A stretch of DNA of 38,171 bases. It comes from Caulobacterales bacterium. GTDB lineage: Bacteria > Pseudomonadota > Alphaproteobacteria > Caulobacterales > Aquidulcibacteraceae. The first letter of the stretch is position 1, and each line of letters opens with the position of its first letter. The position numbers were made by a program, and so were the translations under genes. The stretch is from the NCBI GenBank assembly GCA_040510175.1, contig JBEVJO010000340.1:1-38171 (forward strand). Direction: 5' to 3'. Below are positions 7,596-36,041 of the stretch, piece after piece. Under the pieces are notes generated by a model. The model was not told where the DNA came from, did no database searches, and saw nothing but the letters and a program-made list of their open reading frames with translations.

Positions 7596-7654
7596 GTCTG
7601 CGCGCCTGCGCCAATAAAGGCCATGACCGCTTCAAGCGCTATGTCTGGAAACCT

Positions 7655-13939: not shown

Positions 13940-13955
13940 GGCGCCATCCTCGTCT

Positions 13956-18200: not shown

Positions 18201-19426
18201 CGCGCGGGATCATACTCACACGAGATGCGCCAACCCTCAGGCCGGCCAATCATGAAGAAGCTGAGATCGTAAAGCGCCCCCGCCGAATGAGACGGCAGGT
18301 CAATGAGATTGATATTCCCATAGCGCGCATTTTCGATGAATGAGCGCTGCACGATCAGATTGGTCTGGTAGGGCCGTGCGGAGGCTTCAAAGGGCGCCGT
18401 TTGATGTGCCAGAGCTTCGCGCACATAGGCGCCGATACGCTTGAGAAGAACGCGGAGACTTGGATTGCCGCTCGCATCGAGGTTCAGCAAAAGCGTATTG
18501 GCGAGCGGCCCGACGATATTTTCCAAATCGACGACGTCGCGGCCCGCCACTTGGGTGCCGATGACGACTTGATCGCTATCGGATCGCGCACGAAGAACCA
18601 GAGCCAACGCCGCCGCAGCAGCGCTGAACATCGAAACCCCCGTCAATTTGCATTCGCGCTCCAGGCCTGCCGTGACGCTTTCCGGCAGCAGCATCGAGAC
18701 GATCGGCGCGGCGTTGTCCTGAGGCGGCGAAACGGGATCGTATGGAATCGCGGCTAATGGAGCGTTAGCGCTCTGCTGCCGCCAATAATCGAGATCCGCA
18801 TCGAACGCGCTGCCGGCGAGGCATTCGTTCTGCCACAGAGAATAGTCGACATACTGCAACGGTAATTCGGGCAGGCGTGCCGCATGGCCAGATGCGCGAG
18901 CTTCGATGACGGTTCCAAGTTCGCGCGCAAGTACGCCGATCGACCATCCATCGCTGATCATGCCATGCAAAGTGACAAGAAGGATTGCGCAATCTGGCCG
19001 CAGCACCAAAAGCGTGGCGCGCCATGGCGGTTCGGCGTGCAAATCAAAACCGGTCCGTGCTTCCTTTTCGCCGATGGCGATCGCCTGCGGCTCCCGCTCC
19101 TCGATCGCAAAGCGCGTGAGGTCAACGATGCCAAAGGCGGGCTGATGGCCTTGCCGGACGCGCTGCATCAACTTGCCGCCGGTCATTGTGAAAAGTGTGC
19201 GCAATGATTCATGACGCGCCGTCAGGACATCAAATGCGGCGCGGATCGACGCCGGATCAATTGGGCCTTCGAGGCGCCAGCGGACGGCGACATTCCGCGC
19301 CGCGCTTGCCGGATTTAACTGCTCTTCGCGCCACAAGCGCAGTTGAATAGGCGACGCTGGAAAGTCCGCGAAGTCCGGGCTGGGATCGGCATGGCCTAAG
19401 GGATCGGCGTCGGCGCGAGTGGTCAT
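15266..19426 (-). CDS. NRPS termination protein: C - C - (A C-terminal subdomain remnant) - PCP - TE
   Basis: 1386-aa ORF. The ATGA overlap at 19423-19426 couples it to the upstream megasynthase. Domain motifs are listed in the sub-features. Confidence 0.92.
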   Translation of the reverse strand: MTTRADADPLGHADPSPDFADFPASPIQLRLWREEQLNPASAARNVAVRWRLEGPIDPASIRAAFDVLTARHESLRTLFTMTGGKLMQRVRQGHQPAFGIVDLTRFAIEEREPQAIAIGEKEARTGFDLHAEPPWRATLLVLRPDCAILLVTLHGMISDGWSIGVLARELGTVIEARASGHAARLPELPLQYVDYSLWQNECLAGSAFDADLDYWRQQSANAPLAAIPYDPVSPPQDNAAPIVSMLLPESVTAGLERECKLTGVSMFSAAAAALALVLRARSDSDQVVIGTQVAGRDVVDLENIVGPLANTLLLNLDASGNPSLRVLLKRIGAYVREALAHQTAPFEASARPYQTNLIVQRSFIENARYGNINLIDLPSHSAGALYDLSFFMIGRPEGWRISCEYDPARFSEDTALTLLAAWRAAFESFVEAPQMRLHALDPDIKPVRADDAALFPCTPPQVRCWFLDQLNPGSPALNIPIAWELRGPLASKHLETALKIIISRHEILRTRIIAQETGPAQQIADAVEFKLDRVDLSHLPADALQTEIHKLRRAFAQAPFDLTVPPLMRAMLVRTSASISHLIVVFHQSVFDGWSIRVFATELGSLLHTLREGRTPDLPPLHLQYADFAVAQQARLKSAAFEESRDYWLSHLADAPYFEVSPDHPRAASRTTQSAIASDKLSGALAARLDAAAQTLGVTTFAFGCATVGAALQAFTRENDIVIGTQAAARGEVDEEALIGVFINNLVLRLRPSATGSLADCVFDANERVTAALAHQDMPFDHLVELLKPPRDPSRTPLIAVNVVVRRTFLEAARFGDLEFVAAAPATSTDALYDLSFELVGVQDEWRLHIEYNTSLYATSTIEQLLSLWRRVIENAIIDPAVRLSTFTTERDRSAAQISNPLDDPAAALIADVLRASGQVEDVVVRLQPGLTGAEFYRAMVTPHPDVTISLERLPDALLNALRDNAATADAQIDISVYLRLPKSADGAIAWPNRQPTRPATPAATTSPAQRPEPQHANAEKTIAGIWASLLRVADVNPEDNFFELGGYSLLALRMLADVKKQLGWAPNVAVLFREPTLRAFARHAVTHSPIASREQHTAPASDPLPEGGANAEIFEIQPFGDKTPIIAINNTVIYYNLAQRIGVDRPFIGIQMYDPEQPRELAFQTLETIASSFVDAIRRVRPSGPYILLGLCVSGAIALEVAQQLRRAGEDVPLIIQADATSPNYLRAAPRGRRFLHSMIYRLRVAGRHIARVAKGEISLSYVLGSYQIFNRAGLTPLLIRLGWLKQSDLGEAWSNLWFQPMLEEARRHYVPRRYDGDVAVFLSDEVGAEFLDPDLGWRRHVTGELVVARAPGWHAEIFIGKGADIIAETLRPMLEAIDGVKALR
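15287..16093 (-). other. Thioesterase domain with Cys at the nucleophile-elbow position (GLCVSG)
   Basis: Type I TE-like alpha/beta fold. The elbow at nt 15839-15856 translates to GLCVSG where GxSxG is expected. Candidate Asp is in LIIQADATS and candidate His in APGWHAEIF. Confidence 0.75.
16172..16372 (-). other. Peptidyl carrier protein domain
   Basis: IAGIWASLLRVADVNPEDNFFELGGYSLLALRM, with the phosphopantetheine Ser at residue 1049. Confidence 0.85.
16442..16714 (-). other. Orphan remnant of an adenylation-domain C-terminal subdomain (A8-A10 region) without an A core
   Basis: aa about 905-995: IADVLRASGQVEDVVVRL..AEFYRAMV...LPDALLNAL...YLRLPKSADGAIAWPN. This mirrors the A-sub pattern (IE..L...V.eaaV.. 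/ LP.YM.P / LP.T.NGK.DR). The A10 Lys is lost and no A1-A7 motifs occur anywhere in this protein. Confidence 0.6.
16772..18064 (-). other. Condensation domain 2, non-canonical active site HQSVFDG
   Basis: C1-like motif TPPQVRCWFLDQL is present. The core motif at nt 17648-17668 translates to HQSVFDG, so the second His is replaced by Gln. Confidence 0.8.
18107..19363 (-). other. Condensation domain 1, non-canonical active site HGMISDG
   Basis: C1 motif SPIQLRLW is present. The core motif at nt 18947-18967 translates to HGMISDG, so the second His of HHxxxDG is Gly. I verified this by reverse-complementing the nucleotides. Confidence 0.8.
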
Positions 19427-22400
19427 GTCGGCCGGTTCCGGCGACCGCCGCTGCGGAATGCGGCCAGAGACGGCGCGTCAGCAACAGTGCGTTGATCTGA
19501 GCGTGCAGCAGATGCGATCGCCGCCAGCGCCGCGATGCTGGGATTCTGCAGAACATCTTTTGCTTTTAACGGCAAGCCGCGTTCGGCCATGCGCGCGGCA
19601 ATCCGGAAGAGGTGGATCGAGTCAGCGCCGAGCGCAAACAGGCTGTCGGTGGTGCTGATTTCGCGAACGCCGAGAACATCGCTCCATATCTCCAGCAGCG
19701 TTTCTTCCATAGAATTGACGGGCAGAACCCGATCGCGCGCCGGCTCATTTTCCAAATTCGGATTCGGCAGCGCTTTGCGGTCTAGCTTTCCGTTGCCGGT
19801 CATGGGCATGCGCGCAAGCGCGACCCACGCCGTGGGGCACATATAATCTGGCAGCTGCGAGCGCAAATGCAGCGCCAGATCGCTCGTTGCGGGCGCAGCG
19901 CCGGGCGCTGGAACATAATAGCCGACGAGGCGCGCTTCACCTGTCGCGCCGTCGCGCAAGGCGACCGCAGCCTCCGAGACGCCGGAGGCTGCACGAAGCA
20001 GAGTTTCGATCTCTTCCAGCTCGATACGAAAGCCGCGCAGTTTGATCTGCTGATCGGCGCGCCCAAGATGTTGAATGCGCCCGTCAGGAAGCCGCCGCGC
20101 GATGTCGCCGGTATTATACAGCCGTCGCGGCGCCGCGCCGTTCAGCGAGATAAATCGAAACGCGGCGTCCGTTAGATCGCGCCGGCCAAAATAGCCTTTC
20201 GCCAGGCCTTCGCCGCCAATATACAAAAGACCCGGCGCGCCCAACGGGCATAACTGGTCATTCGAATCCAGAATATGCAATTGCGTATTGGCGATCGGCT
20301 CGCCGATGGTGATGAGTCCCGGGCCGACCCGCGAAACAGATGACCATATCGTCGTTTCTGTCGGACCATACATATTCCACAGTTCGGCGTCCGGCGCGCT
20401 TGTAAGGCTGTCCGCGAGGTCGCGCGGCAGAGGCTCGCCTCCGCACAGCATTTTGAGCGAGCGCGAAGGCTTGAACCCCGCCTCGAGCAATATCCGCCAC
20501 AAAGACGGAGTGGCTTGCAGCATGGTTGCGCGGTGCTTGTTGATCAGGTCCAGCAAGCCGAACCCGCTCCGCACATCATCCCTGTTCGCGATGACCACAC
20601 GCGCGCCGAGGACCAGCGGCAAGAAGAGTTCCAGCGCCGCAATGTCAAAGGACACGGTGGTGACCGCCACGATGCAATCGTTGGCGTTACAGCCTGGCTT
20701 GCGCGCCATGGAGGCGAGGAAGTTCGTCAAAGCGCGATGCGGCACCTCGACTCCTTTCGGCTCACCGGTCGAGCCGGAGGTAAAGATGACATAGGCGATT
20801 GCCCCCTCGCCTAAGGCAACGGCCGCGCCAGTTTTGTCTTCGGAATCGATCAGCGCGCGATCGCGGTCCAGACTGACGACAATGGACGCATCAGGCGCAA
20901 TGGGAAGCGCCCGGTCATTGTGGCATACAAGCGCCGACACTTGCGCGGTCGCGAGTACGTGGCGCAGGCGCTCCGGCGGATGATCGATGTCGAGCGGAAC
21001 GTAAGCGTGCCCAGCTTTCAGTACGCCCAGCATCGACGCCAGCAAGTCCAGCGAGCGATCCAGGGCGATTGCAACGCGCTTGCCCGAGCCGGGCACACGG
21101 CGCGCGAGATAGCGTGCGAATTGATTGGCGCGCGCGTCAAGGTCGGCATAGGTGAATGCCTGCGCGCCGGCGATCGCCGCGATTGCGTGCGGCGTTCTGC
21201 GGGCCTGCACCTCGAAAAGACGGTGCAATGGCAGATCCGTGAATTCGGTCTGCGTGTGATTGAGCGTTTCCACCATCCACGACCGTTCGTCGCGCGATAG
21301 CAGGTTGAGGGATTGGATCGGCTGAGTCAGGTCTTCAACGAAGCTTTCAAGAATGGTCCGATAATGGCCCATCCAGCGCTCGATCGTTGCAGCATCAAAA
21401 ATATCGCCGTTGAAGTCGCAATCGATGCGCAGCCCTTCGCTGGATTCAGCGACATTGAAGAACAGATCGAAATTCGACGCAGCCTTAGGGTTGGGTCGAA
21501 CGCGCGCCGTCAAATTCTCAAGCTTGAGATCGCCGCCAAATTTTTCGAAGTTAAACTGCACTTCGGTGAGCGGCAGACGATTGATGTCGCGCGGAACCTT
21601 CAAATCGCGCACCAGCGTGCCGAACGTGTAAGACTGATGATCGAAGGCGCGCAGCAGCGCTTGTTTGACTTTCTCGAGGTGATCAGCGACGGGCGCCGCC
21701 GGATCAAAACCGACGCGAACGGGCAGCAAATTGACGCAATGTCCGACCAGGCCCGCGTCTTCCTCCAGGCTTTGCCCAGCCGTCGGGACCGCGACGACAA
21801 CGTCGCTATGGTTCGCCAGCCGGCCGATCAGAATCTGGAACGCCGTGAAGAGCGTCGCGAACGGCGTGCAACCTCGCTGAGCGCCGGCCTTTTTGATTTT
21901 CCGGGTCAGGATTTCATCGATGAAGGCGGTGCTGGTGGCGCCGTCATAGGTGCGAACTTGCGGACGCGCGCGATCGGCTGGCAAATCCGGCAACGCCGGA
22001 ATGTCTAAATATTGACCTGCCCAGAAGCTTTGGGCGCTGCGCGTATCGGCGGTTTGTTGAGCCTGCGCCAATGCATAGGCGCGATATTGCGGCGCCGGCG
22101 GCAGACCGGCCGCAAGACCGGCCAAGCGCGCGTCATAGCACGCGGCGAGTTCGCTGATCACCACGCCCGCGGACCAACCATCGAACACGATATGATGGGC
22201 GCTGAAGCAAAGAACGTGCGCGTTGTCGCCAAGTCGGACGACAAAGGCGCGGACCAATGGTCCATTGACCAAGTCGAATGGCGTTCTAGCGTCGTCCGCC
22301 AATATATCGGCCAGCGCGTCTTCGCCGCCGCTTGCGCTGACGTCCACCGAGCCTAGCTCAAGCTCAAGCTGCGGGCGCACAAACATCTGCTCGCCGGTTT

Positions 22401-25400
22401 CACCGAAATAAGCGCGCAAAGCGTCGTGCCGCGCCACGAGGTCATTCACGGCGTCTTCAAGCGCGCGCACATTGAGCAGGCCGTCAAGTTCAAGACGAAA
22501 TGATTCATTGAAGGCGCAGGAGGCGGTGTCGCCCATCTGCGCCGCCAGCCAGACTTCCTTCTGCATTTCGGTAAGTGGCGCCTGCCACGGCAGATCGGCG
22601 ACTGGCGCCGTGATTAACGCTGCTATTTCCGCCGCAGGCGCCAAACTAGCGTCTATGCTGTGTGCGCCCAAGATGCCGACGCTCTGCAAGGCATCCAGCG
22701 CTTCGCCGAAGACTGTTTCGATGCGTTGAAAATCGGCGTCGGAATGCGCCGTGGTGATGAAGCAGGGAAAGCCTTCTTGGATGTTTACCCCGAGTGATCG
22801 GGCATACAAATAGAAAAGGCTCCCGAGCGCATCTTCGGCGCCGAAGTTCAGCATGAACCAGGACGAGAACGTTTCAGCGCGTGTTTTGACGCCGCGATCC
22901 GCGAACAGCGCATTCAGCCGGTCAACCAGTTGGCGGGTGCGCGCTTCCAGGCCCTGCTGGAGCGCTGCGCCTTGAGTCTCCAAATGCGTGAGGACAGCTT
23001 GAGCCGCCGCCACAACAAGCGGATGGCGCACAAAGGTTCCGGCGAAGAATATCGGCGCGACTTCAGGCACGCTGTCATCGCCGAACTGCCAGGCGCCGCC
23101 GTCGAGCGCATCCATATAAGCGGGCGTGCCGGCAAGAATGCCGATGGGCATCCCGCCGCCGATCACTTTGCCGTAGGTCGCCATGTCGGCCTTGATGCCC
23201 CACAGCGCTTGCATGCCGCCGGGATGGGTTCGGAAACCGGTCACCACCTCATCAAAAACAAGGGCCGCGCCGTTGGCTGCGGTGATCGCCCTAAGTTCTT
23301 TCAGGAATTCAACGGGACGCAATTCCGGATGGCGGCTTTGCACCGGCTCGACAATAATTGCGGCGAGCGTCTCCGCGTTGTCCCGAATCCAGGACAGGCT
23401 TTCGCTTTCGCCGTAGCCGAGCACGACCATGTTGCTGACCGCGCTGGCTGGAATTCCGGCGGAGATCGGCAACGCGCGGGGCGGCGCGCCACGGCGGGCG
23501 CCTTTCACCAGCACTTCATCGAACTGGCCGTGATAGTCATTGGAGAAAACCACAACGGTTTCGCGGCCGCTGACGGCGCGCGCGACACGCATCGCGGCCA
23601 TGACAGCTTCCGAGCCTGTGTTGCAGAAGGTCACCCGCTCCAGACCGACCATTTTGGCGATCCGGCGCGCAACGTCACCGGCGGCATCGCTTTGCGGACC
23701 AATCGGGAAGCCTTTCGTCAATTGCTCCTGGAGGGCTTCGACGACAAAGTCGGGGCTGTGGCCGAACGCCGTCTGCCCATAGCCATTAACGAGATCGATG
23801 TAGGAGTTGCCGTCCAGGTCCCAGATTGTCGACCCTTTGGCGCGTGACGCCACGATCGGGAAAATCGCGTTCTTCCACTCGGCTCTGAAACCGGACACCG
23901 AGCGTGGGTCGGCCAGATGCGGGCGATGCTCCGCCGCATAAGATTTCGACTTCGGCATCTGCTCCGACACGCGTGCCACCAGCGCGTCGACAAACGACTT
24001 CTGGGCCGGCGTCAGGGTTTCGGTTCGCGCGTTCTTATCGAACATGCGGAAACGCGAAGGCTGCCCGTCGGCATTCGGCGCGGCGGCCGCCGGAATGGCT
24101 GAGATCGCGGCCGGCGCAGGCGCTACAGCTGCAGGCTGTGCTTGCTGGCTTTGGGCTGAAGGACTTTCGCGGCGGCCGCCGAGCGCATCGAGCTGCCGGT
24201 CCATCAAATTCTGCATCGCGCTGAGTTGCGCCTGGAAAATCGCCAGCATGTCGCCACCCGCCGCTATTGGGGCAAGCGGCGCGGAGGCTGCGGGTGCTGC
24301 AACAACTGGCGCCGCGCTGACTTGAGCGATGGGCGCTTCGATTTGCGCAACGGGATCTGCGGGCATCGCCGCATCGAGAAAATCCGCGAGCGACGCGATA
24401 TCCGGATAGTCGCCGAGCAGCTGACGGAACGTGATCTTTATCTTGAAATGCTTTTGAATCTGCTGCGCGACCTGGCCGAGAAAGAGCGAGTCAAAGCCGA
24501 ACTCCAGATAGGGCGTGGTCCATTCCGTATCGGCGATCGGCTCGCCTGAGAGGCCCTCAATGATCCGCGCAATATCCGCACAGAGGCGCGTGGTCCGCTG
24601 CCCGGATTTTGTTGCAGGCGAAGGCGGGGCGCTCTCACTCATTTCGGGCATGGATAAATCCGCTGGAGGCATTGGTTGCTGAAGCGTCGCAGGATCGCGC
24701 GGTTCTGGGCTCTTGGCGGCGGCGCTGGACGATGTTTTTGGCGCCTCGATCCAATAGCTGCGACGTTCAAAGGGATAGGTCGGCAGACTCGACAACCGGG
24801 GCGCGCTCGATGCCGGCCAGCGAACCGGCGCGCCGCTGGTCCAAAGCCGGGCCGTCGCCTCGGCAAAAACACGATCTTCGTCTGACGCGTTGGAAAACTC
24901 AGGAAGGGAGGCGATAACGCAATCGTAGCTGGCCTTGCTGAGCCCTTGCATCGCAAACGTCGAAAGCGTGCGTCCGGGTCCCACTTCCAGCAGGACAGGC
25001 CGCGTGTCCGCGACCAATCGCGCCAACGCATCGGCAAAACGCACAGGCTCACGGCAATGCAGGGTCCAATACGATTTCGAGGTCAGCAGGTCCTGAGTCG
25101 CCCAATCCCCGGTTACGCATGAGACAAACGGAATATTGGGAGCATGCAACTTCATGCCGTTCGCATGAATCGCGAGCGCGGCGACCACGTCATCCATCAT
25201 CGAAGAATGAAATGCGTGCGAGGTATGTAGCCTGCGATGTTGAATATCGCGCTGGTTGAGCGCGCGCTCGAAAGCAGCGATGCGGGGGAAGTCGCCTGCG
25301 ACCACGCAAAGCGACGGGGCATTGATGGCTGCGATGTCCAGACCCTCGTCAAGCAGCGCCTTTAGCGCCGACTCGGACGTCCGCACGGCCAGCATGGCGC

Positions 25401-27423
25401 CGCCCGGCGCCGCCTGCATGAAGCTGGCGCGCGCCGCGACAAAGCTCACTGCTTCTTCGAAAGACATGACGCCGGCGAGCGTAGCGGCGACAAGCTCGCC
25501 GACGCTGTGACCAATCATGCTGTCTGGCTGCACGCCACGCGACATCCAGAGTTTGGCCAACGCGTATTGCGTTAGAAAAAGTGCGGGCTGCGCGAACACC
25601 GTCGAGCGGATTTCATGGGACTCATTCTCGTCGGCCGACGTTTTGCGATAGAGCAGGTCGCGGATGTCCCGCTGCAATATGCGGGCGAGTTCGTTAGCGC
25701 CGCGATCAATCACGTCGCGAAAGACCGGTTCGCTTTTGTAAAGCGCACTTCCCATGCCGGGATATTGAGCGCCCTGTCCGGGAAACATGAATACGACGTG
25801 GGGGCGTTTCGCCGGAATGCGCTTCAAAGCCTTCGCATCGAGACTGTTGAGCTTCGTGAGCGCCTCTTCCCGATCGGCGGCGACAATTGTGGCGCGCACA
25901 TCGAAATCGCGGCGGCCCTCTTGAAGCGTCCGCGCCGTTGCATCCAGTTGGAGCGCCAGATCTTGCTCAACAGAAGTTTTCAGGCGAGCCGCCGCCGCCA
26001 GAACTGCAGTTTCCGTGCGCGCTGAAATCGGAAAGATAAGCGGCGTCTTGTCTTGCGCTGGATGAGCGGCGCGCGCGGGCGCCTCTTCCAGCACAACGTG
26101 AACATTTGTGCCGCCGACGCCAAAAGAACTGACGCCGGCGCGCCGGGGGCTTCTACCGCGTGGCCATGGCGTCGCATCTGTGGATATGCGGAATGGACTC
26201 TTATCCAGATCGATGTTCGGATTTGGCGACTTGAATTCCGTCATCGCCGGAATTTTTTCGTGATGCAGGCTCAGCGCGGTCTTGATCAGGCCGGTGACGC
26301 CGGCTGCCGCGTCGAGGTGGCCGACATTCGCCTTCGCTGATCCAAGGACGCAGAAATTTCTCGCGCCGTTGCAATCGCCAAACGCGCGCTTCAGACCCTC
26401 GAATTCAATTGGATCGCCAAGCGGTGTGGCCGTGCCATGCAGCTCAACATAGCCGATGGACGCCGCATCAACGCTGGCGGCTCCGTGCGCGGCCTGAATA
26501 ACGCGCGCCTGCCCCTCGGCGCTTGGCGCGGTGAAGCCAACCTTGGCGCTGCCGTCATTGTTGACCGCCGTTCCCCGAATGACTGCAAAGATGGGATCGC
26601 CATCGGCGATCGCGTCTTCGAGACGCTTCAAAAGCACAACGCCAGCGCCGCTGCCGAAAACGGTGCCGGATGCTTCGGCGTCAAACGGGCGGCACGCTCC
26701 ATCACGCGAGGCGATGCCGCCTTCCTGATAGAGATAACCGCGCTTCTGCGGAAACGTAATTGAAACGCCGCCGGCCAGCGCGGCGTCGCATTGATAGAGC
26801 ATCAGGCTTTGACATGCCTGGGCAACCGCGAGCAGCGACGTTGAACACGCGCTCTGAACCGTCAGCGCCGGTCCGCGCAAATTGAGCTTGTAGGCGACTC
26901 GCGTGGCCAGCGCGTCCGGCAGCGCCCCAAGCAGTGTTGGCAAGCCGCCGATCTGGTAGTCGCTGGTGAAGCTTGCGATTGCGTTTCGGTCGGCACAGAC
27001 ATTGTTGAGGAAATAGGTGGGCATGCTGGCGCCGGCGAACACGCCAATCTCGCCCTTGTACCGCTCCGGTATGATCCCCGCAGATTCCAGCGCTTCCCAG
27101 GCGATTTCCAGAAAGATCCGGTGTTGCGGATCCATGAGTTCCGCTTCGCGCGCGTACACGCCAAAGAATTCTGCATCAAACTTATCGGCGTCTTCAAGAA
27201 TCGGCCGCGCCGCGACGAAGTTGGACTGTGATCGCGTTTCGACGTCGAAATTGTCCTCGAGTTCGGAGAGGCCCAGGCGCGAAATGGAAACGGTCTTGTC
27301 GAGAAGATTGCGCCAAAACGCGTTCAGATTCTCGGCGCCAGGGAATCGTCCCGCCATGCCGACGATGGCGATGGCGTCCGGCGGATAATCTCCGGCAAAT
27401 GAAAAGCTGCTGTCGGGCATCAT
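19423..27423 (-). CDS. Hybrid PKS-NRPS megasynthase: KS-AT-ACP-aminotransferase-C-A-PCP
   Basis: 2666-aa uninterrupted ORF. An ATGA overlap with the upstream A-PCP gene lies at 27420-27423. All core motifs are present; see the domain sub-features. Confidence 0.95.
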   Translation of the reverse strand: MMPDSSFSFAGDYPPDAIAIVGMAGRFPGAENLNAFWRNLLDKTVSISRLGLSELEDNFDVETRSQSNFVAARPILEDADKFDAEFFGVYAREAELMDPQHRIFLEIAWEALESAGIIPERYKGEIGVFAGASMPTYFLNNVCADRNAIASFTSDYQIGGLPTLLGALPDALATRVAYKLNLRGPALTVQSACSTSLLAVAQACQSLMLYQCDAALAGGVSITFPQKRGYLYQEGGIASRDGACRPFDAEASGTVFGSGAGVVLLKRLEDAIADGDPIFAVIRGTAVNNDGSAKVGFTAPSAEGQARVIQAAHGAASVDAASIGYVELHGTATPLGDPIEFEGLKRAFGDCNGARNFCVLGSAKANVGHLDAAAGVTGLIKTALSLHHEKIPAMTEFKSPNPNIDLDKSPFRISTDATPWPRGRSPRRAGVSSFGVGGTNVHVVLEEAPARAAHPAQDKTPLIFPISARTETAVLAAAARLKTSVEQDLALQLDATARTLQEGRRDFDVRATIVAADREEALTKLNSLDAKALKRIPAKRPHVVFMFPGQGAQYPGMGSALYKSEPVFRDVIDRGANELARILQRDIRDLLYRKTSADENESHEIRSTVFAQPALFLTQYALAKLWMSRGVQPDSMIGHSVGELVAATLAGVMSFEEAVSFVAARASFMQAAPGGAMLAVRTSESALKALLDEGLDIAAINAPSLCVVAGDFPRIAAFERALNQRDIQHRRLHTSHAFHSSMMDDVVAALAIHANGMKLHAPNIPFVSCVTGDWATQDLLTSKSYWTLHCREPVRFADALARLVADTRPVLLEVGPGRTLSTFAMQGLSKASYDCVIASLPEFSNASDEDRVFAEATARLWTSGAPVRWPASSAPRLSSLPTYPFERRSYWIEAPKTSSSAAAKSPEPRDPATLQQPMPPADLSMPEMSESAPPSPATKSGQRTTRLCADIARIIEGLSGEPIADTEWTTPYLEFGFDSLFLGQVAQQIQKHFKIKITFRQLLGDYPDIASLADFLDAAMPADPVAQIEAPIAQVSAAPVVAAPAASAPLAPIAAGGDMLAIFQAQLSAMQNLMDRQLDALGGRRESPSAQSQQAQPAAVAPAPAAISAIPAAAAPNADGQPSRFRMFDKNARTETLTPAQKSFVDALVARVSEQMPKSKSYAAEHRPHLADPRSVSGFRAEWKNAIFPIVASRAKGSTIWDLDGNSYIDLVNGYGQTAFGHSPDFVVEALQEQLTKGFPIGPQSDAAGDVARRIAKMVGLERVTFCNTGSEAVMAAMRVARAVSGRETVVVFSNDYHGQFDEVLVKGARRGAPPRALPISAGIPASAVSNMVVLGYGESESLSWIRDNAETLAAIIVEPVQSRHPELRPVEFLKELRAITAANGAALVFDEVVTGFRTHPGGMQALWGIKADMATYGKVIGGGMPIGILAGTPAYMDALDGGAWQFGDDSVPEVAPIFFAGTFVRHPLVVAAAQAVLTHLETQGAALQQGLEARTRQLVDRLNALFADRGVKTRAETFSSWFMLNFGAEDALGSLFYLYARSLGVNIQEGFPCFITTAHSDADFQRIETVFGEALDALQSVGILGAHSIDASLAPAAEIAALITAPVADLPWQAPLTEMQKEVWLAAQMGDTASCAFNESFRLELDGLLNVRALEDAVNDLVARHDALRAYFGETGEQMFVRPQLELELGSVDVSASGGEDALADILADDARTPFDLVNGPLVRAFVVRLGDNAHVLCFSAHHIVFDGWSAGVVISELAACYDARLAGLAAGLPPAPQYRAYALAQAQQTADTRSAQSFWAGQYLDIPALPDLPADRARPQVRTYDGATSTAFIDEILTRKIKKAGAQRGCTPFATLFTAFQILIGRLANHSDVVVAVPTAGQSLEEDAGLVGHCVNLLPVRVGFDPAAPVADHLEKVKQALLRAFDHQSYTFGTLVRDLKVPRDINRLPLTEVQFNFEKFGGDLKLENLTARVRPNPKAASNFDLFFNVAESSEGLRIDCDFNGDIFDAATIERWMGHYRTILESFVEDLTQPIQSLNLLSRDERSWMVETLNHTQTEFTDLPLHRLFEVQARRTPHAIAAIAGAQAFTYADLDARANQFARYLARRVPGSGKRVAIALDRSLDLLASMLGVLKAGHAYVPLDIDHPPERLRHVLATAQVSALVCHNDRALPIAPDASIVVSLDRDRALIDSEDKTGAAVALGEGAIAYVIFTSGSTGEPKGVEVPHRALTNFLASMARKPGCNANDCIVAVTTVSFDIAALELFLPLVLGARVVIANRDDVRSGFGLLDLINKHRATMLQATPSLWRILLEAGFKPSRSLKMLCGGEPLPRDLADSLTSAPDAELWNMYGPTETTIWSSVSRVGPGLITIGEPIANTQLHILDSNDQLCPLGAPGLLYIGGEGLAKGYFGRRDLTDAAFRFISLNGAAPRRLYNTGDIARRLPDGRIQHLGRADQQIKLRGFRIELEEIETLLRAASGVSEAAVALRDGATGEARLVGYYVPAPGAAPATSDLALHLRSQLPDYMCPTAWVALARMPMTGNGKLDRKALPNPNLENEPARDRVLPVNSMEETLLEIWSDVLGVREISTTDSLFALGADSIHLFRIAARMAERGLPLKAKDVLQNPSIAALAAIASAARSDQRTVADAPSLAAFRSGGRRNRPT
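19504..19710 (-). other. Peptidyl carrier protein domain
   Basis: LLEIWSDVLGVREISTTDSLFALGADSIHLFRI, with Ser2602. Confidence 0.85.
19768..21228 (-). other. Adenylation domain, predicted Gly-activating
   Basis: A3 YVIFTSGSTGEPKGV, A5 NMYGPTETT, A7 YNTGDIARR, A8 GRADQQIKLRGFRIELEEIE, A10 NGKLDRKAL. Specificity residues aligned by eye to GrsA numbering give DILQLGMIWK. Confidence 0.8.
21304..22590 (-). other. Condensation domain (canonical HHIVFDG)
   Basis: PLTEMQKEVWLAAQ. nt 22177-22197 translate to HHIVFDG, verified from the nucleotides. Confidence 0.9.
22729..24006 (-). other. In-line class-III PLP-dependent aminotransferase domain (GSA-aminomutase-like, MycA/ItuA-type AMT)
   Basis: SYIDLVNGYGQTAFGHSP, FCNTGSEAVMAAMRVAR, LVFDEVVTGFR and the PLP-lysine motif ATYGKVIGGGMPIG (Lys1419). 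Confidence 0.85.
24370..24594 (-). other. Acyl carrier protein domain
   Basis: YLEFGFDSLFLGQVAQQI, with Ser979. Confidence 0.85.
24904..25797 (-). other. Acyltransferase domain, malonyl-CoA-type signature
   Basis: FMFPGQGAQYPGMG, GHSVGE (Ser640) and the HAFH motif (aa 736-739), which is generally associated with malonyl rather than methylmalonyl (YASH) specificity. Confidence 0.85.
26086..27378 (-). other. Ketosynthase domain (catalytically competent)
   Basis: IAIVGMAGRFPGA; active-site TVQSACSTSLLAV (Cys193, codon 26845-26847); ELHGTATPLGDPIE; KANVGHLDAAAG. Confidence 0.9.
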
Positions 27424-29420
27424 TTACCCCTTGCGAGGCGCGCGCGCGCGGCCGCGTCTCTCGCACGATCGGCGCGGGTGCGGGCTATGCTGGAGTCAGC
27501 TTCTTGAGACTGAGCGCCGCGCAAATATGCCGCCAGATCAGAAATGCTGGCGTGCTCAAACATCGCAGCAAAAGGAAAATCCCGGTCCAAAACGCGTTGG
27601 GTTTCGGCGTGCGCCTGCATAAGCTGCAAAGAGCGTCCGCCGAGGTCGAAAAAATTCAGGTCAAGGCGCCGGATCGAAACACCAAGGACGCTTTCCCAAA
27701 TCGCCACGAGTTTGCTCTCGAGGTCGCTTGAAGGAGTCGTCTCTAAAGATGAACTTTGGCAATCACCAGCAACTAAAAACTCGGCCAATGCCGCGCGATC
27801 GACCTTCCCGTTGGCGGTCAATGGGAGTGCGGATATTGCCGAAATAGAGGCTGGTATCATGTGAGCGGGAAGAGTCTCATGCAGCCGGGGCAGGAGGTTT
27901 TGTTCCCAATGCGCGGGCGGGCCCGCAAGGCGGCTGGTCACGAACGCAAACAATTGTTTCCCTGCGGCGCCTCTTTCGATGGCGATAACCGCGCTATCGG
28001 CAACGCGCTCGTCTGCACGCAGCGCTGCTTCAATTTCGCCGGGTTCCACACGCTTGCCGCCGATTTTTACCTGGCCATCGAGCCGCCCCAGAAACTCGAT
28101 AACGCCGTCTGGCCTGCGCCGAACAATGTCACCCGTCAGATAGACGCGCTGGTTGATCGGCGCCGGAAGCGTCACAAAGCGCGCGGCTGTCAATTCGGGA
28201 AGGTTATGGTAGCCAAGCGCCAGTCCGGCGCCGCCCGCCGCGAGCTCGCCGCTTGCGCCGTCGAGAACGGGCAGGCGATCTTCATCAAGGACGAAGACTT
28301 CCGTGCCTGCGATAGCGCGGCCGATCGGCGCCGCCTCCAATGGGCCGCGCATAAATGTGTGGCAGCAGGTGAAGGTGGTGTTTTCCGTCGGTCCATAGCC
28401 GTTGATGACGCGACACGCGGGGAAGCGCCGCAATACGCGGTCGACATGCGATGGCGACAGAACATCGCCCCCAGCCAGCAATTGTCGCAACGGACTCAGG
28501 GACTCGATCGCGTGATCGACGACAAGATGGAAGAGGCCTGCCGTCAGCCAGGCGATGGTGACTTTGTGGCCATCGATGATTGCCCCGATTTCCGTGACAG
28601 AAGGACGGGCATTGTTCAAAATTGCGAGCGCGCCGCCATTCAACAGTGCGCCCCAAATTTCAAACGTGCTTGCATCAAACGCCAACGGCGAGGCGTGCAA
28701 AATAACGTCTCGGCTCGAAAGCTCACAGAAATCTTGTTGGAGCACCAAACGCTCGACGGCGCGATGCGGCACGACAACGCCCTTGGGCAGGCCGGTCGAT
28801 CCCGACGTGTACATGATATACAGCGGCTGATCAGGGGCCGCGAAAAAAGCTGGCGGATTAAAAGCGAGGTCTGGGCTGACTTGAAGCACGCGCGCCAGCG
28901 TCAATTGCGCAACTGATTCTACTCTAACACATGCGGGCGGCGCATCGTCAGTCAGTAGAAGAGTGGCTGCGGCATCGCGGAGCATGTGGGCGATCTGCGT
29001 CGCGGGATATGCGGGATCGATGGGCACGTAGATCGCGCCGATTTTGACGATGCCCAAGATCGCCGCGATTGTTTCTTGCGATCGCGCTGCGATCAAAGCG
29101 ACGCGATCGCCCGGCTGAACACCGTGCTGGCGAAGATTTGTCGCGGCCCGGTCCGACGCTAAATCCAGGTCCCGATAGGTCCAACTGGGTCTGCCGCGTT
29201 GAACAAGTGCGGGAGCGTAAGCGTGTTCCGCGACGGTCACCCGAAAGGCGTAAGCCAAACCGCCGCGCCCATCATAGGTTGCGCTCTCCGGTGGCAAACT
29301 CTCTTCTGTGAAACGCGCCCGTCGCATAAAAAACACCTCATGCAACAGGAACTTGCGACCCGTCGCGAGGAACAGCCTATCGTTCAGGTAGAGTACACGC
29401 GAGGCGGCATCGCTTTGCAA
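27420..29420 (-). CDS. Stand-alone NRPS loading protein: A-PCP, predicted Val-activating
   Basis: 666-aa ORF (alternative ATG at 29327). A3 YIMYTSGSTGLPKGV, A5 NGYGPTENT, A7 YLTGDIVRR, A10 LPLTANGKVDRAAL. PCP motif FFDLGGRSLQL (Ser597). Specificity residues read as DAFWLGGTFK. Confidence 0.9.
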   Translation of the reverse strand: MQSDAASRVLYLNDRLFLATGRKFLLHEVFFMRRARFTEESLPPESATYDGRGGLAYAFRVTVAEHAYAPALVQRGRPSWTYRDLDLASDRAATNLRQHGVQPGDRVALIAARSQETIAAILGIVKIGAIYVPIDPAYPATQIAHMLRDAAATLLLTDDAPPACVRVESVAQLTLARVLQVSPDLAFNPPAFFAAPDQPLYIMYTSGSTGLPKGVVVPHRAVERLVLQQDFCELSSRDVILHASPLAFDASTFEIWGALLNGGALAILNNARPSVTEIGAIIDGHKVTIAWLTAGLFHLVVDHAIESLSPLRQLLAGGDVLSPSHVDRVLRRFPACRVINGYGPTENTTFTCCHTFMRGPLEAAPIGRAIAGTEVFVLDEDRLPVLDGASGELAAGGAGLALGYHNLPELTAARFVTLPAPINQRVYLTGDIVRRRPDGVIEFLGRLDGQVKIGGKRVEPGEIEAALRADERVADSAVIAIERGAAGKQLFAFVTSRLAGPPAHWEQNLLPRLHETLPAHMIPASISAISALPLTANGKVDRAALAEFLVAGDCQSSSLETTPSSDLESKLVAIWESVLGVSIRRLDLNFFDLGGRSLQLMQAHAETQRVLDRDFPFAAMFEHASISDLAAYLRGAQSQEADSSIARTRADRARDAAARARLARGK
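27516..27725 (-). other. Carrier protein domain of the loading protein
   Basis: LVAIWESVLGVSIRRLDLNFFDLGGRSLQLMQ. Confidence 0.85.
27786..29258 (-). other. Adenylation domain of the loading protein
   Basis: Motifs A1-A10 as above; FDASTFE, IAWLTAG, LLAGGD, NGYGP and TENTTF supply the code residues. Confidence 0.85.
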
Positions 29421-29518: not shown

Positions 29519-30652
29519 CTAACGCACCGGCGGCGTTGCATCAAGAAGTGTGATCAATCGTTTCGCGACATTGAGCCATTTAAACTGATCGGCATGTTTC
29601 AGTCCGGCCTCAATTCGGTTCCGTCTGCGGTCCTGATCGACGGCCAGAGAGAGGATGCCTTCGACCCAGGCGTCGGGCGAATCCGCATCCGCGTACATAA
29701 CGGCATCGCCACATACTTCCGGTAGAGCGCCGCAGGGCGCGCAGATTACCGGACATCCTACGGCCATCGCTTCCAACGGCGGTAAGCCAAACCCCTCCGT
29801 GGTGGACGGAAAGGCGAGACAAAGGGCGCTTTCCATGAGGGCCCGAAGCTCTCCATCGCTCACCTTGCCCGCGAACACGACATTTGAGGGAATGGAGGCG
29901 CCGATTGCGGCCTCAAACGCTTCGCGGTTAGCCGCGCCGAACAGAACCAGAGTTTTTTCGATTAACCGGGGATCCGCAAACGCCTTAATCAGAACGCGGA
30001 CGTTTTTATGAGGCTGCGTGTTCGCCCGACCCAAAACGAAGCTCCCAGGCGCGAGATTGAGCGCTTTTAAGGTTTTCTGGTCCGCCGGCATGGAAAGGAT
30101 GTGGTCGGCGCCGTTGTGCAGAACGGTTGTTTTTTCCAGCCGCGCCACTCTGGCGTTCGCCAATTGCGTCCTTGAATAATCCGAGACTGCGAGGATGCGG
30201 GTATGCCGTTTGCCGAGAAGCGGCTGAACGGTCTTATACCAGAGGCGAAAGGGCTTCGAGTATGATTCAGGGGAGAGGTAAACCTGGGCGTCATGGATCA
30301 TCGTTACGGCATTTGTCGCGATGACGGGTCCCAGATTGCAGAAGCCGACAATCATCGCGCCGTTGCGCATGGCGCGATACGGCAAATCGAATTGCTCCCA
30401 CGGTATGTGGGTGAACACGCCGCCTTGGCGAAACGGAATATGCGCAAGGCTCAGCGTGTGATGCAGCCGGCGCGGGGCGAAAAGTTCGATGTCCCAACGC
30501 TGCCGGATTTCTGAGTCGAGACCAAGCAACTCGTCGAGCGCCAGGATGAGCTGCTCGGCAACCCGATGCACGCCCGTCGGCGGCGCCATCAGGAACTTCC
30601 CATTCAAGATAATTTTTCGCCTTTGGGGCGATATTTCGAGCTGTGCGCTCAT
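29519..30652 (-). CDS. Glycosyltransferase, GT4 (group 1) family
   Basis: 377-aa ORF. E-x7-E motif EGFGLPPLE followed by AVGCPVICAPCGALPEV. A GGAGG lies about 11 nt upstream of the ATG. Confidence 0.85.
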   Translation of the reverse strand: MSAQLEISPQRRKIILNGKFLMAPPTGVHRVAEQLILALDELLGLDSEIRQRWDIELFAPRRLHHTLSLAHIPFRQGGVFTHIPWEQFDLPYRAMRNGAMIVGFCNLGPVIATNAVTMIHDAQVYLSPESYSKPFRLWYKTVQPLLGKRHTRILAVSDYSRTQLANARVARLEKTTVLHNGADHILSMPADQKTLKALNLAPGSFVLGRANTQPHKNVRVLIKAFADPRLIEKTLVLFGAANREAFEAAIGASIPSNVVFAGKVSDGELRALMESALCLAFPSTTEGFGLPPLEAMAVGCPVICAPCGALPEVCGDAVMYADADSPDAWVEGILSLAVDQDRRRNRIEAGLKHADQFKWLNVAKRLITLLDATPPVR

Positions 30653-30707
30653 CCCGGAATGGCCTCCAGGATCAATGTCCGGCTGAGAACCAAACCGGCC
30701 AAGCGCT

Positions 30708-31646: not shown

Positions 31647-31894
31647 TCGCTAGCATCGCTGCCGGTGAATCTTATGACGTTTGCCTTCTGTGCGACATAA
31701 GAACGCACGATGACTGGCGGGCGCGGGCATTCAAGAACGTGGGATTAAGTCACCTGCACAGTAATGCCGCCTTGAACGGGATGTGTGGACGCGGGATGGT
31801 CCTGCCCTTGCCAGACCGCTTTCCGGACCGCCATGACAGGCCGCATGATCAGACTTCTCCGCCCGAGCACGGCAGCAGTAGCGGCGCGTCACGC
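31647..31894. promoter_or_regulatory. Divergent promoter region between the GT2/NRPS-PKS operon (-) and the flippase gene (+); contains inverted repeat TCTTATG-N19-CATAAGA (31669-31701)
   Basis: 248-bp non-coding gap if the flippase starts at 31895. It has 7-bp perfect arms with a 19-nt spacer, the same arm and spacer geometry as the repeat at 4667-4699. No sigma-factor consensus could be assigned by eye. Confidence 0.4.
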
Positions 31895-34892: not shown

Positions 34893-34947
34893 TCGTGGCC
34901 TGACGAAATCGGCGGCCGCCATCGACAACGCTAGAAGGAGGCTGAAA

Positions 34948-36024: not shown

Positions 36025-36041
36025 GCGCCGGTTGTCGCTCG

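What the first reader, a model, noticed from the sequence alone, without database searches (positions are those of the whole stretch)
19423..29420. Predicted chemistry: Val starter, malonyl extension, in-line beta-keto transamination, then Gly (a 3,4-diamino acid unit)
Seen in sequence: the loading A domain's specificity residues, hand-aligned to GrsA-PheA positions 235-517, read DAFWLGGTFK, which I recall as a valine code. The second A domain reads DILQLGMIWK, which I recall as a glycine code of the DhbF type. The KS has the Cys-His-His triad. The AT has GHSVGE plus HAFH, the malonyl signature. There is no KR, DH or ER. A class-III PLP aminotransferase with an intact Lys motif instead follows the ACP, the arrangement MycA/ItuA-type modules use to make beta-amino fatty acids. 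Here the primer appears to be an alpha-amino acid rather than a fatty acid. The predicted carrier-bound intermediate is therefore 3,4-diamino-5-methylhexanoyl-Gly, an amino analogue of statine-type gamma-amino-beta-hydroxy acids. Such a vicinal diamine building block made by this logic would be unusual. It also provides two amine nucleophiles for cyclisation or conjugation.
Basis: partly seen in the sequence, partly recalled or inferred. Interest (0 to 1): 0.75.

Follow-up and report, generated by a model that had tools for sequence, protein, structure and literature searches.

The report
Amino-acid-primed aminating PKS-NRPS, orphan family
This is a real hybrid peptide/polyketide assembly line that should turn valine, malonate, an amino donor and glycine into a peptide carrying an unusual 3,4-diamino acid. 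It belongs to a large, widespread gene-cluster family whose product I found described nowhere, and which sits inside sugar-polymer loci.

Summary
A GrsA-anchored alignment gives A1 = DAFWLGGTFK (Val) and A2 = DILQLGMIWK (Gly). The KS has Cys/His/His, the AT has GHSVGE/HAFH, and there is no room for KR, DH or ER. The aminotransferase matches the MycA domain at E = 1e-119 and keeps its Lys.

A valine starter feeding the KS is supported by homologues in which A-PCP is fused to the KS. So 3,4-diamino-5-methylhexanoyl-Gly is the sound colinear prediction, but it is inferred, not shown.

- The line continues into a third protein, C-C-(vestigial A)-PCP-TE. Both C domains lack the catalytic His and the TE nucleophile is Cys.
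- This is one member of a large orphan family: at least 584 species genomes carry a related AMT, in rhizobia, Paraburkholderia, Roseobacteraceae, Acidobacteria and myxobacteria.
- The family travels with orthologous Wzx/Wzy-type glycan genes, here and elsewhere.

I found no described product and no paper on an amino-acid-primed aminating module. Verdict: a new variant of the MycA-type module, chemistry unverified, interest moderate to high.

The parts
27420..29420 (-). Loading module A-PCP. The ORF as listed is 666 aa; the likely true start is M32 at 29327. The A domain is about 27804-29243 and PCP1 about 27522-27713 (GGRS serine).
   Evidence: Pfam hits. Code DAFWLGGTFK. Pocket segment closest to the Val-activating PA1221. 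TIGR01733 amino-acid adenylation domain at 6.8e-115. The stop overlaps the next gene's start.
25891..27375 (-). Ketosynthase with an intact Cys-His-His triad
   Evidence: Pfam ketoacyl-synt, Ketoacyl-synt_C and KAsynt_C_assoc. Motifs SACST, HGTAT and NVGH.
24844..25794 (-). Acyltransferase with the malonyl signature
   Evidence: Pfam Acyl_transf_1 at 4e-52. GHSVGE and HAFH. GHSxG/HAFH is present in 72 of 72 family loci.
24379..24591 (-). ACP (LEFGFDSLF), followed by an Ala/Pro-rich linker. There is no reductive domain.
   Evidence: Second PP-binding stretch. GFDS motif. The AT-to-AMT spacing is 201-342 aa across the family, too short for KR, DH or ER.
22654..23976 (-). In-line class-III PLP aminotransferase domain of the MycA type
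   Evidence: Pfam Aminotran_3 at 5e-51. MycA AMT structures 6KFM/6KFU at 1e-119, with the YGK lysine aligned. The Lys motif is present in 72 of 72 loci.
21280..22581 (-). Canonical condensation domain (HHIVFDG)
   Evidence: Pfam Condensation at 3e-85. Motif. HH in 75 of the 85 mid C domains scored across the family.
19519..21216 (-). A domain with a Gly code (about 19786-21216) plus PCP2 (19519-19704, GADS)
   Evidence: Code DILQLGMIWK. Pocket closest to the Gly-activating AB3403 and 5U89. Literature lists the code as Gly.
15266..19426 (-). Third synthetase: C-like 1 (18092-19369, HGMISDG), C-like 2 (16733-18061, HQSVFDG), vestigial A C-terminal subdomain (about 16397-16729), PCP3 (16175-16363) and a thioesterase with a Cys nucleophile (15269-16027, GLCVSG)
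   Evidence: Pfam. Motifs. TE alignments place Cys where other TEs have Ser, as in AB3403. An A10 remnant LPKSADGA has lost its Lys. C-like 2 is closest to LCL-type C domains.
13956..15266 (-). Membrane-anchored serine hydrolase (GYSFGG), esterase / PAF-acetylhydrolase-like
   Evidence: Weak PETase and PAF-AH matches. Esterase 5YAE at 4e-09. A homologue is present in 30 related loci, typically just downstream of the TE.
12021..14107 (-). Two JmjC/cupin-type Fe(II)/2-oxoglutarate oxygenase genes (12947-14107 and 12021-12953), both with an HxD...H triad
   Evidence: Pfam Cupin_8. JMJD5 and FIH matches. Sequences. Cupins co-occur with the Ct1-type C-like domain.
10945..12012 (+). TIGR04325-family methyltransferase
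   Evidence: NCBIfam 3e-41. The same family is annotated beside the cluster in Loktanella and Rhizobium. Homologues occur in 19 loci.
9193..9936 (+). Sfp-type phosphopantetheinyl transferase
   Evidence: Pfam ACPS and AASDHPPT_N. It is the commonest neighbour: 38 loci by tblastn and 14 of 102 nearest ORFs.
186..9130 (.). Glycan genes on one flank: Wzz / Tyr-kinase (186-2018 and 5100-7595), GT4 (2054-3196), initiating sugar transferase (3333-4121) and a multi-TM Wzy-like protein (7655-9130). A further GT2 lies at 9966-10964.
   Evidence: Pfam. Orthologues of 3333-4121 (36-59% identity, 15 loci) and 2054-3196 (49-59%, 7 loci) sit beside the same PKS-NRPS elsewhere.
29519..37262 (.). Glycan genes on the other flank: GT1 (29519-30652) and GT2 (30708-31646), same strand and directly upstream of the A-PCP gene; Wzx-type flippase (31739-33388); GT4 (33750-34892); glycosyl hydrolase-like (34948-36024); GT1 (36042-37262)
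   Evidence: Pfam. Orthologues of 30708-31646 at 39-50% identity in 13 loci. Flippases account for up to 11 of the 102 nearest neighbour ORFs (6 Polysacc_synt and 5 Polysacc_synt_3 hits, which may overlap).

Best explanation
This is a three-protein hybrid NRPS-PKS assembly line.

Steps supported by sequence and homology:
1. A1 adenylates L-valine and loads PCP1.
2. The KS takes the valyl unit and condenses it with malonyl-ACP loaded by the malonyl-specific AT. This gives 4-amino-5-methyl-3-oxohexanoyl-S-ACP.
3. No reductive domain is present. The in-line MycA-type PLP aminotransferase converts the C3 ketone to an amine, giving 3,4-diamino-5-methylhexanoyl-S-ACP. This step is the assembly-line counterpart of the BioF/BioA route from KAPA to DAPA.
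4. The canonical C domain joins this unit to Gly on PCP2.

Steps that are inferred:
5. The chain passes to the third protein. Its last module has lost its A domain, so PCP3, if used at all, is probably glycylated in trans by A2. Its two C-like domains lack the catalytic His. They more likely dock partners, such as the two JmjC-type oxygenases or a glycan-side acceptor, than form peptide bonds.
6. The Cys thioesterase off-loads the chain by hydrolysis, by cyclisation through one of the two amines, or by transfer to an acceptor.
7. Two oxygenases, a methyltransferase and a membrane hydrolase tailor the product. The surrounding Wzx/Wzy genes suggest that the product is glycosylated or joined to a glycan.
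For: - Domain order and intact catalytic motifs.
- Specificity codes extracted against 1AMU.
- Closest experimentally characterised pockets are Val (PA1221) and Gly (AB3403, DhbF-like). Literature code tables agree.
- AMT matches the MycA AMT at 1e-119 with the Lys conserved.
- A-PCP is fused in frame to the KS in Paraburkholderia and Rhodobacteraceae homologues. The window's A-PCP aligns at 45% identity to that N-terminus.
- Family census of 72 loci: 63 have an amino-acid A domain (D235 present) directly upstream of the KS, and 37 of those are Val-like. The AMT Lys is present in 72 of 72 and the malonyl AT in 72 of 72. No locus has room for a reductive domain.
- The middle A domain is Gly-like in about 64 of 81.
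- Four-base start/stop overlaps couple the first three genes, and the hydrolase gene abuts the third (1-base overlap).
- Terminal-module decay and the Cys TE.
Against: - No enzyme was assayed and no product is known for any family member.
- A free gamma-amine on a beta-keto or beta-amino thioester is prone to five-ring lactamisation. The valine amine may therefore be masked or used before or during extension, which would change the intermediate.
- Stachelhaus codes do not separate Val from close relatives such as Ile, allo-Ile or hydroxy-Val with certainty.
- Starter codes vary across the family, for example DALALGGTFK in Paraburkholderia.
- The role of the His-less C domains, the fate of PCP3 and the TE chemistry are guesses.
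Confidence: 0.6

Rival explanations
1. The domain logic is the same, but the diamino-acyl-glycyl unit is not a free small molecule. The Cys thioesterase, perhaps with the Ct2-type C-like domain, transfers it onto a sugar of an undecaprenyl-linked repeat unit, or the unit is glycosylated. The true product would then be a peptide/polyketide-decorated exopolysaccharide or glycoconjugate, exported by the Wzx/Wzy genes.
For: - The operon is embedded between glycan genes on both sides, with a GT2 and a GT1 directly upstream on the same strand.
- Orthologous sugar transferase, GT2 and GT1 genes (36-59% identity) lie beside the same PKS-NRPS in 7 to 15 other loci.
- The neighbour census is dominated by PPTase, flippases and GTs.
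- Annotated Loktanella and Rhizobium loci carry the same set: sugar transferase, oligosaccharide flippase, TIGR04325 methyltransferase, GTs and Tyr autokinase. Rhizobium also has a DegT sugar aminotransferase.
- Ct2-type domains co-occur with glycan genes, 24 of 36 against 7 of 32.
- A similar dependence was proposed for carenaemin (PMC8313283).
Against: - This is co-location only. No linkage chemistry or acceptor enzyme has been identified.
- About half of the loci show no glycan gene within the DNA held.
- The association test is not corrected for phylogeny.
- MOP-family flippases could simply export a small glycosylated metabolite.
Confidence: 0.3
2. The free-standing A-PCP does not prime the KS. 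It supplies the A-less terminal PCP3 in trans, in the way SyrB1 serves SyrE. The KS is primed by an acyl-CoA or acyl-ACP, giving an iturin-like beta-amino-fatty-acyl-Gly-Val lipopeptide.
For: The terminal module lacks an A domain. A hydrolase gene follows the TE. MycA-type modules normally take fatty acyl starters (established knowledge).
Against: - In 17 of 63 loci, and in the roughly 3,300-aa Paraburkholderia proteins, A-PCP is fused directly to the KS.
- The A-PCP gene sits immediately upstream and is translationally coupled.
- No FAAL or acyl-ACP gene is in the window.
- Where a terminal A domain survives in relatives, it is Gly-like or degenerate, not Val-like.
- The hydrolase is membrane-anchored.
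Confidence: 0.07
3. The starter is not valine but a close relative such as Ile, allo-Ile, Leu or a hydroxylated Val. Alternatively the valyl unit is hydroxylated on the carrier by a cupin oxygenase before extension, so the diamino acid differs from 3,4-diamino-5-methylhexanoate.
For: Ten-residue codes are imperfect predictors. Relatives carry DAFLLGAVIK, DAFFLGAVFK and DALALGGTFK. Two oxygenases are encoded in the operon.
Against: The code is an exact match to a tabulated Val code. It differs by one residue from the structurally characterised Val enzyme PA1221.
Confidence: 0.15

Closest known systems
MycA / ItuA / BmyA (mycosubtilin, iturin and bacillomycin synthetase subunit A)
   Same: The KS-AT-ACP-AMT-C-A-PCP order is the same, and the AMT matches the MycA AMT structures at 1e-119 with the catalytic Lys aligned. 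The AT is malonyl-type and there is no reductive domain, so a beta-ketoacyl-ACP is transaminated in line and then coupled to an amino acid.
   Different: In MycA the starter comes from a fatty-acyl-AMP ligase plus ACP. Here it comes from an amino-acid A-PCP with a Val code, so the product would be a 3,4-diamino acid rather than a beta-amino fatty acid. The downstream amino acid is Gly rather than Asn. The line is short, with a Cys TE, and does not build a heptapeptide.
BioF/BioA chemistry in biotin synthesis (KAPA to DAPA)
   Same: Both use an amino acid plus an acyl thioester to make an alpha-amino ketone. A class-III PLP aminotransferase then converts it to a vicinal diamine. This is a chemical analogy from established knowledge.
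   Different: BioF and BioA are free-standing enzymes acting on free acids, and BioF is a PLP-dependent decarboxylating synthase. Here a KS performs a Claisen condensation with malonyl-ACP, and everything stays tethered to a carrier.
Statine-type gamma-amino-beta-hydroxy acid modules (pepstatin, didemnin, tubulysin tubuvaline)
   Same: An amino acid or peptidyl unit is extended by one malonyl unit on a hybrid NRPS-to-PKS interface.
   Different: Those routes reduce the beta-keto group with a KR, in cis or in trans. Here an AMT replaces the KR, giving an amine instead of a hydroxyl. This comparison rests on recalled knowledge and was not tested here.
Conserved Roseobacter NRPS/PKS/glycosyltransferase/PPTase cluster (Martens et al., as described in PMC4337385)
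   Same: Family members occur in Roseobacteraceae (Loktanella, Jannaschia, Aliiruegeria, Sulfitobacter) with the same NRPS, PKS, GT and PPTase neighbours. PMC4337385 reports that cluster in 28 of 57 genomes with its product uncharacterised.
   Different: Identity with the published cluster is inferred from gene content and taxonomy only. I could not retrieve a Phaeobacter, Ruegeria or Leisingera copy to compare.
AB3403 of Acinetobacter baumannii (C-A(Gly)-PCP-TE, PDB 4ZXH)
   Same: It is the best structural relative of the A2 pocket. It also matches the terminal C (1e-26) and the TE (4.5e-10), where it likewise has Cys in the nucleophile elbow (GWCFGG against GLCVSG).
   Different: AB3403 is a complete single module. 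Here the terminal module has lost its A domain and the catalytic His of its C domains.
PA1221 of Pseudomonas aeruginosa (A-PCP, PDB 4DG8/4DG9)
   Same: It is a free-standing A-PCP didomain and the best match to the A1 pocket segment (2e-33). Its code DALWLGGTFK differs at one position. That it activates Val is established knowledge.
   Different: PA1221 is not followed by a KS-AT-ACP-AMT protein.

Membership tests
MycA/ItuA-type beta-aminating hybrid PKS-NRPS module | Contiguous KS-AT-ACP-AMT-C-A-PCP with no KR, DH or ER | tested here: met
   Pfam domain order. The AT-to-AMT gap holds only the ACP and a linker.
MycA/ItuA-type beta-aminating hybrid PKS-NRPS module | Class-III PLP aminotransferase domain homologous to the MycA AMT, with the Schiff-base Lys | tested here: met
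   6KFM/6KFU at 1e-119 over residues 7-447, with YGKVIGGG aligned to YGKIIGGG.
MycA/ItuA-type beta-aminating hybrid PKS-NRPS module | Priming by a fatty-acyl-AMP ligase and ACP (fatty acid starter) | tested here: not met
   The loading domain is an amino-acid A domain: TIGR01733 at 6.8e-115, with D235 and K517 present and a Val code. No FAAL is in the window.
MycA/ItuA-type beta-aminating hybrid PKS-NRPS module | Transamination of the carrier-bound beta-keto intermediate actually occurs | not testable with these tools
   This needs in vitro reconstitution with MS of the ACP-bound species.
Valine-activating NRPS adenylation domain | Alpha-amino and carboxylate anchors (D235, K517) and a Val-type ten-residue code | tested here: met
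   DAFWLGGTFK. Tabulated as Val for MlcM. One residue different from PA1221.
Valine-activating NRPS adenylation domain | Measured substrate preference for L-Val | not testable with these tools
   ATP-PPi exchange or a hydroxamate assay is required.
Glycine-activating NRPS adenylation domain | DILQLGxxWK-type code | tested here: met
   DILQLGMIWK. AB3403 has DILQLGVVWK and 5U89 has DILQLGLIWK in the same alignment. Listed as Gly in PMC12283262.
Malonyl-specific type I PKS acyltransferase | GHSxG nucleophile elbow plus the HAFH motif | tested here: met
   GHSVGE and HAFH.
Canonical peptide-bond-forming C domain (asked of the two C domains of the third protein) | HHxxxDG with the second, catalytic His | tested here: not met
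   HGMISDG and HQSVFDG. The substitution recurs across the family as Q, S, A or G. The overall fold family is LCL-like.
Type I thioesterase with a Ser-His-Asp triad | GxSxG serine nucleophile | tested here: not met
   GLCVSG aligns Cys to the Ser of 7CRN and to the Cys of AB3403. Cys appears in at least 48 of 62 family TEs.
Conserved Roseobacter NRPS/PKS cluster (Martens et al.) | NRPS, PKS, glycosyltransferase and PPTase genes together in Roseobacteraceae genomes | tested here: inconclusive
   Loktanella and other Rhodobacteraceae loci of this family have that gene set. No sequence from the published strains could be retrieved for direct comparison.

The most novel reading that the evidence does not exclude
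A widely conserved Wzx/Wzy-type glycan pathway, found from Roseobacteraceae and rhizobia to Paraburkholderia and Acidobacteria, uses a dedicated NRPS-PKS line to build a vicinal-diamine (3,4-diamino-acyl)-glycyl unit. A Cys thioesterase and a His-less C-like domain then transfer this unit onto the sugar repeat. That would make a nonribosomal-peptide/polyketide-decorated polysaccharide, a class of cell-surface polymer not yet described. It would also explain the long-orphan Roseobacter cluster.
Probability: 0.25. Interest if true: 0.85.

Novelty: new variant of a known kind. Interest (0 to 1): 0.6.

Why it matters
If the prediction holds, swapping a fatty-acid starter for an amino acid in a MycA-type module is a simple, portable way to make beta,gamma-diamino acids on an assembly line. 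Such vicinal diamines are useful in peptidomimetics and metal binding.

The cluster is also not a one-off. Related loci occur in hundreds of species, including plant symbionts (Sinorhizobium, Rhizobium, Paraburkholderia) and abundant marine Roseobacteraceae, and no product is known for any of them. Its steady association with exopolysaccharide genes points to a role at the cell surface, in biofilm formation or in host interaction. This can be tested directly in strains that are genetically tractable.

Tried and rejected
- Fatty-acid or keto-acid starter: rejected. D235 and K517 are present, TIGR01733 scores above its cutoff, and the pocket is Val-like.
- Hidden KR, DH or ER: rejected by Pfam and by the AT-to-AMT spacing.
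- Literature search for a described product or for the chemistry: nothing found for an AMT domain with a vicinal diamine, for gamma-diamino, or for Roseobacter with an AMT domain. Searches on Paraburkholderia, phymatum and Roseobacter gave only genome-mining mentions of an unknown hybrid cluster.
- Myxoglucamides and carenaemin: these are different clusters and serve only as analogies, for atypical C-like domains and for PKS/NRPS with Wzy dependence.
- Attempts to retrieve named Phaeobacter or Ruegeria homologues: the protein search returned mostly fragments or failed.
- Source organism: the closest genome-collection relatives are only 57-66% identical in the AMT. The best overall relative is a metagenome contig at 63%. 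The source is probably an uncultured alphaproteobacterium, but this is not established.
- I did not run structure prediction, because no conclusion depended on it.
Full report
**What is there.** The first, 27420-29420, is an A-PCP didomain. The second, 19423-27423 (2666 aa), reads KS-AT-ACP-AMT-C-A-PCP. Pfam E-values run from 1e-9 to 1e-85, and there is no KR, DH or ER hit. The first ORF as listed starts at a TTG. Alignment with the closest homologue begins near residue 53, so the true start is probably M32 at 29327.

**Specificity codes.** It matched residues 65-528 except for two residues near the start, which I corrected. Aligning both A domains to it returned GrsA's canonical DAWTIAAICK as a control.

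**Do the codes mean Val and Gly?**
- I searched each pocket segment (A4 to A5) against all solved structures. A1's best match is PA1221 (2e-33), a free-standing A-PCP known to activate valine. In the alignment its code reads DALWLGGTFK, one residue different.
- A2's best matches are AB3403 (4ZXH) and the DhbF-like 5U89, both glycine-activating. Their codes read DILQLGVVWK and DILQLGLIWK.
- DAFWLGGTFK is tabulated as Val for the malacidin enzyme MlcM (PMC9113097). DILQLGMIWK is tabulated as a Gly code (PMC12283262).

**Other catalytic residues.**
- The KS has SACST, HGTAT and NVGH. The AT has GHSVGE and HAFH. The ACP has GFDS. The C domain has HHIVFDG. All PCP serines are present.
- The aminotransferase domain matches the MycA AMT crystal structures (6KFM/6KFU) at 1e-119 over its whole length, with the Schiff-base lysine motif aligned.

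**Does the amino acid really prime the KS?**
- Full-length homologues are abundant. About 2,650-aa proteins with the window's architecture occur in Alphaproteobacteria: Phenylobacterium, Rhizomicrobium, Beijerinckia and Chelativorans.
- In Paraburkholderia, Caballeronia, Steroidobacteraceae and Rhodobacteraceae the protein is about 3,300 aa. There the A-PCP is fused in frame to the KS. The window's A-PCP aligns at 45% identity to that N-terminus.
- Myxobacterial versions of about 4,300 aa also fuse a further module.
- Such fusions are strong evidence that A-PCP is the loading module of the PKS.

**Family census.** A scan of one genome per species with an AMT-domain profile found at least 584 genomes with a relative. 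I fetched the best 80, which are 57-66% identical.
- Synteny is conserved: A - KS - AT - AMT - C - A - C(terminal) - [A] - TE.
- Of 72 loci with the KS and AMT in one ORF, 63 have an amino-acid A domain (D235 present) directly upstream of the KS. Seventeen of those are fused.
- Thirty-seven of the 63 carry a Val-like code, DA[FL]W.GGTFK. The rest have other aliphatic or polar codes.
- The AMT lysine motif is present in 72 of 72, and GHSxG/HAFH in 72 of 72.
- The AT-to-AMT spacing is 201-342 aa, which excludes reductive domains.
- The middle A domain is Gly-like in about 64 of 81.

**The predicted logic.** It is not an accident of this window. For this member the colinear intermediate is 3,4-diamino-5-methylhexanoyl-Gly. 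This remains an inference. A free gamma-amine next to a thioester is prone to lactamisation, so the amine may be masked or used earlier than the model assumes.

The next gene, 15266-19426, is translationally coupled and encodes C-C-PCP-TE with no A domain.
- Both C domains have lost the catalytic second histidine: HGMISDG and HQSVFDG. The same substitution (Q, S, A or G) recurs across the family, while the internal C domain is almost always HH.
- Between the second C domain and PCP3 lies a relic of an A-domain C-terminal subdomain. Its A10 motif has lost the lysine: LPKSADGA.
- In relatives the terminal module is found at every stage of decay. Some have C-A-PCP-TE with a Gly-like A. Some have an A that has lost D235 and K517. 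Some have C-PCP-TE. Paraburkholderia has C-TE without a carrier.
- The thioesterase nucleophile is Cys (GLCVSG), as in AB3403. This holds in at least 48 of 62 family TEs.
- I infer an ancestral X-Gly-Gly line whose third module is now vestigial or has been repurposed.
- Cys thioesterases are known from strained-ring formation, as in obafluorin and sulfazecin (recalled knowledge). Cyclisation through one of the two amines is therefore one possible off-loading route, and transfer to an acceptor is another.

**Tailoring genes.** The operon continues with four further genes.
- A membrane-anchored serine hydrolase (GYSFGG).
- Two JmjC/FIH-like Fe(II)/2OG oxygenases with intact HxD...H triads.
- On the other strand, a TIGR04325 methyltransferase and an Sfp-type PPTase.

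Across loci, the Ct1-type terminal C-like domain co-occurs with cupin genes: 13 of 32 against 2 of 36, Fisher p = 8e-4. The test is not corrected for phylogeny. This fits the known use of His-less C-like 'interface' domains to recruit trans-acting oxygenases (see PMC13638107). It is only a hypothesis here.

**Genomic context.** The synthetase operon sits inside a Wzx/Wzy-type polysaccharide locus.
- The locus contains two Wzz/tyrosine-kinase genes, an initiating sugar transferase, a Wzx flippase, a Wzy-like membrane protein and seven glycosyltransferases. A GT2 and a GT1 lie directly upstream on the same strand.
- Orthologues of the sugar transferase (36-59% identity, 15 loci), the GT2 (39-50%, 13 loci) and a GT4 (49-59%, 7 loci) lie beside the same PKS-NRPS elsewhere.
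- A Pfam census of the 102 nearest neighbour ORFs in 26 loci is led by PPTases (14), Wzx-type flippases (up to 11) and GTs.
- PGAP-annotated loci in Loktanella salsilacus and Rhizobium sp. CCGE532 show the same set: sugar transferase, oligosaccharide flippase, TIGR04325 methyltransferase, GTs, tyrosine autokinase and a Crp/Fnr regulator. Rhizobium also has a DegT sugar aminotransferase and a pyruvyl transferase.
- This matches the 'NRPS, PKS, glycosyltransferase, PPTase' cluster reported as conserved in 28 of 57 Roseobacter genomes with an uncharacterised product (PMC4337385). Surveys from 2023-24 still give no product for the hybrid NRPS-T1PKS clusters they detect in related genera. I could not retrieve a sequence from the published strains to prove identity.
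- A functional link between a PKS/NRPS and a Wzy-type locus has been proposed once before, for the unrelated carenaemin cluster (PMC8313283).

**Comparison with known systems.**
- The system works like a MycA/ItuA module in every testable respect except the starter: an amino-acid A-PCP replaces the fatty-acyl ligase. It therefore fails that defining feature and is best called a new variant of the kind.
- Chemically, the amino-ketone-to-diamine step parallels BioF/BioA.
- Architecturally, it is the amino counterpart of statine-forming modules.
- No paper in the searchable library describes an amino-acid-primed AMT module or a 3,4-diamino acid made this way. The library is incomplete, so prior description elsewhere cannot be excluded.

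**Verdict.** The product is inferred, and the third synthetase, the tailoring genes and the glycan context all matter. The design is also common in genomes, although I found it undescribed chemically. Interest is 0.6. The most novel reading not excluded is a peptide/polyketide-decorated polysaccharide (probability about 0.25).

Noticed in passing
window 15266-19426 (-): The third synthetase has two C domains lacking the catalytic second His (HGMISDG, HQSVFDG). It also has a relic A10 motif without its Lys before PCP3, and a thioesterase whose nucleophile is Cys (GLCVSG). All three features recur across the family.
   Followed up: yes
window 186-9130, 9966-10964 and 29519-37262; loci L084 and L085: The PKS-NRPS operon is embedded in a Wzx/Wzy-type polysaccharide locus. 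Orthologous sugar transferase, GT, flippase and TIGR04325 methyltransferase genes accompany the same synthetases in Loktanella, Rhizobium, Paraburkholderia and other genera.
   Followed up: yes
window 12021-14107 (-); family loci L004-L083: Two JmjC/FIH-like oxygenase genes follow the synthetases. Across loci, cupins co-occur with the Ct1-type His-less C domain (13 of 32 against 2 of 36), and glycan genes co-occur with the Ct2-type (24 of 36 against 7 of 32). The window has both types. The tests are not corrected for phylogeny.
   Followed up: partly
window 13956-15266 (-): A predicted membrane-anchored serine hydrolase (N-terminal TM helices, GYSFGG) abuts the TE-encoding gene (1-base overlap). 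A homologue lies just downstream of the TE in many of the 30 related loci that carry one. Its substrate is unknown.
   Followed up: partly
window 186-2018 (+) and 5100-7595 (+): There are two separate Wzz / tyrosine-autokinase (chain-length regulator) paralogues in one locus. A 491-aa multi-TM protein at 7655-9130 has no Pfam hit and looks Wzy- or ligase-like. Homologues of it flank the cluster in 15 loci.
   Followed up: no
proteins P0014-P0061 (Paraburkholderia) and loci L004-L083: The starter A-domain code varies within the family. Many Paraburkholderia copies have W278 replaced by A, G or N (DALALGGTFK, DALGLGGTFK). A few loci carry Thr-like or charged codes. This suggests a series of different beta,gamma-diamino acids.
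   Followed up: partly
loci L006, L019, L024, L025, L027, L045, L046, L053 and L069: Where a terminal A domain survives, it is either Gly-like or has lost both D235 and K517 (for example ERFFLPLIWQ, SRFYLSMIWA). These are snapshots of an A domain decaying in place.
   Followed up: partly
window 29327-29420: The listed TTG start of the A-PCP ORF is probably too far upstream. Homologue alignment and an in-frame ATG (M32) suggest a start at 29327. The 12947-14107 ORF likewise overlaps the upstream gene by about 150 nt and probably starts later.
   Followed up: partly
one search hits H24-H40 (Ralstonia solanacearum megaplasmids): The AMT domain also matches Ralstonia megaplasmid synthetases at 48% identity. 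They may be the fatty-acid-primed ralsolamycin/ralstonin RmyA type (identification recalled, not checked), and if so they would make an outgroup for dating the starter switch.
   Followed up: no
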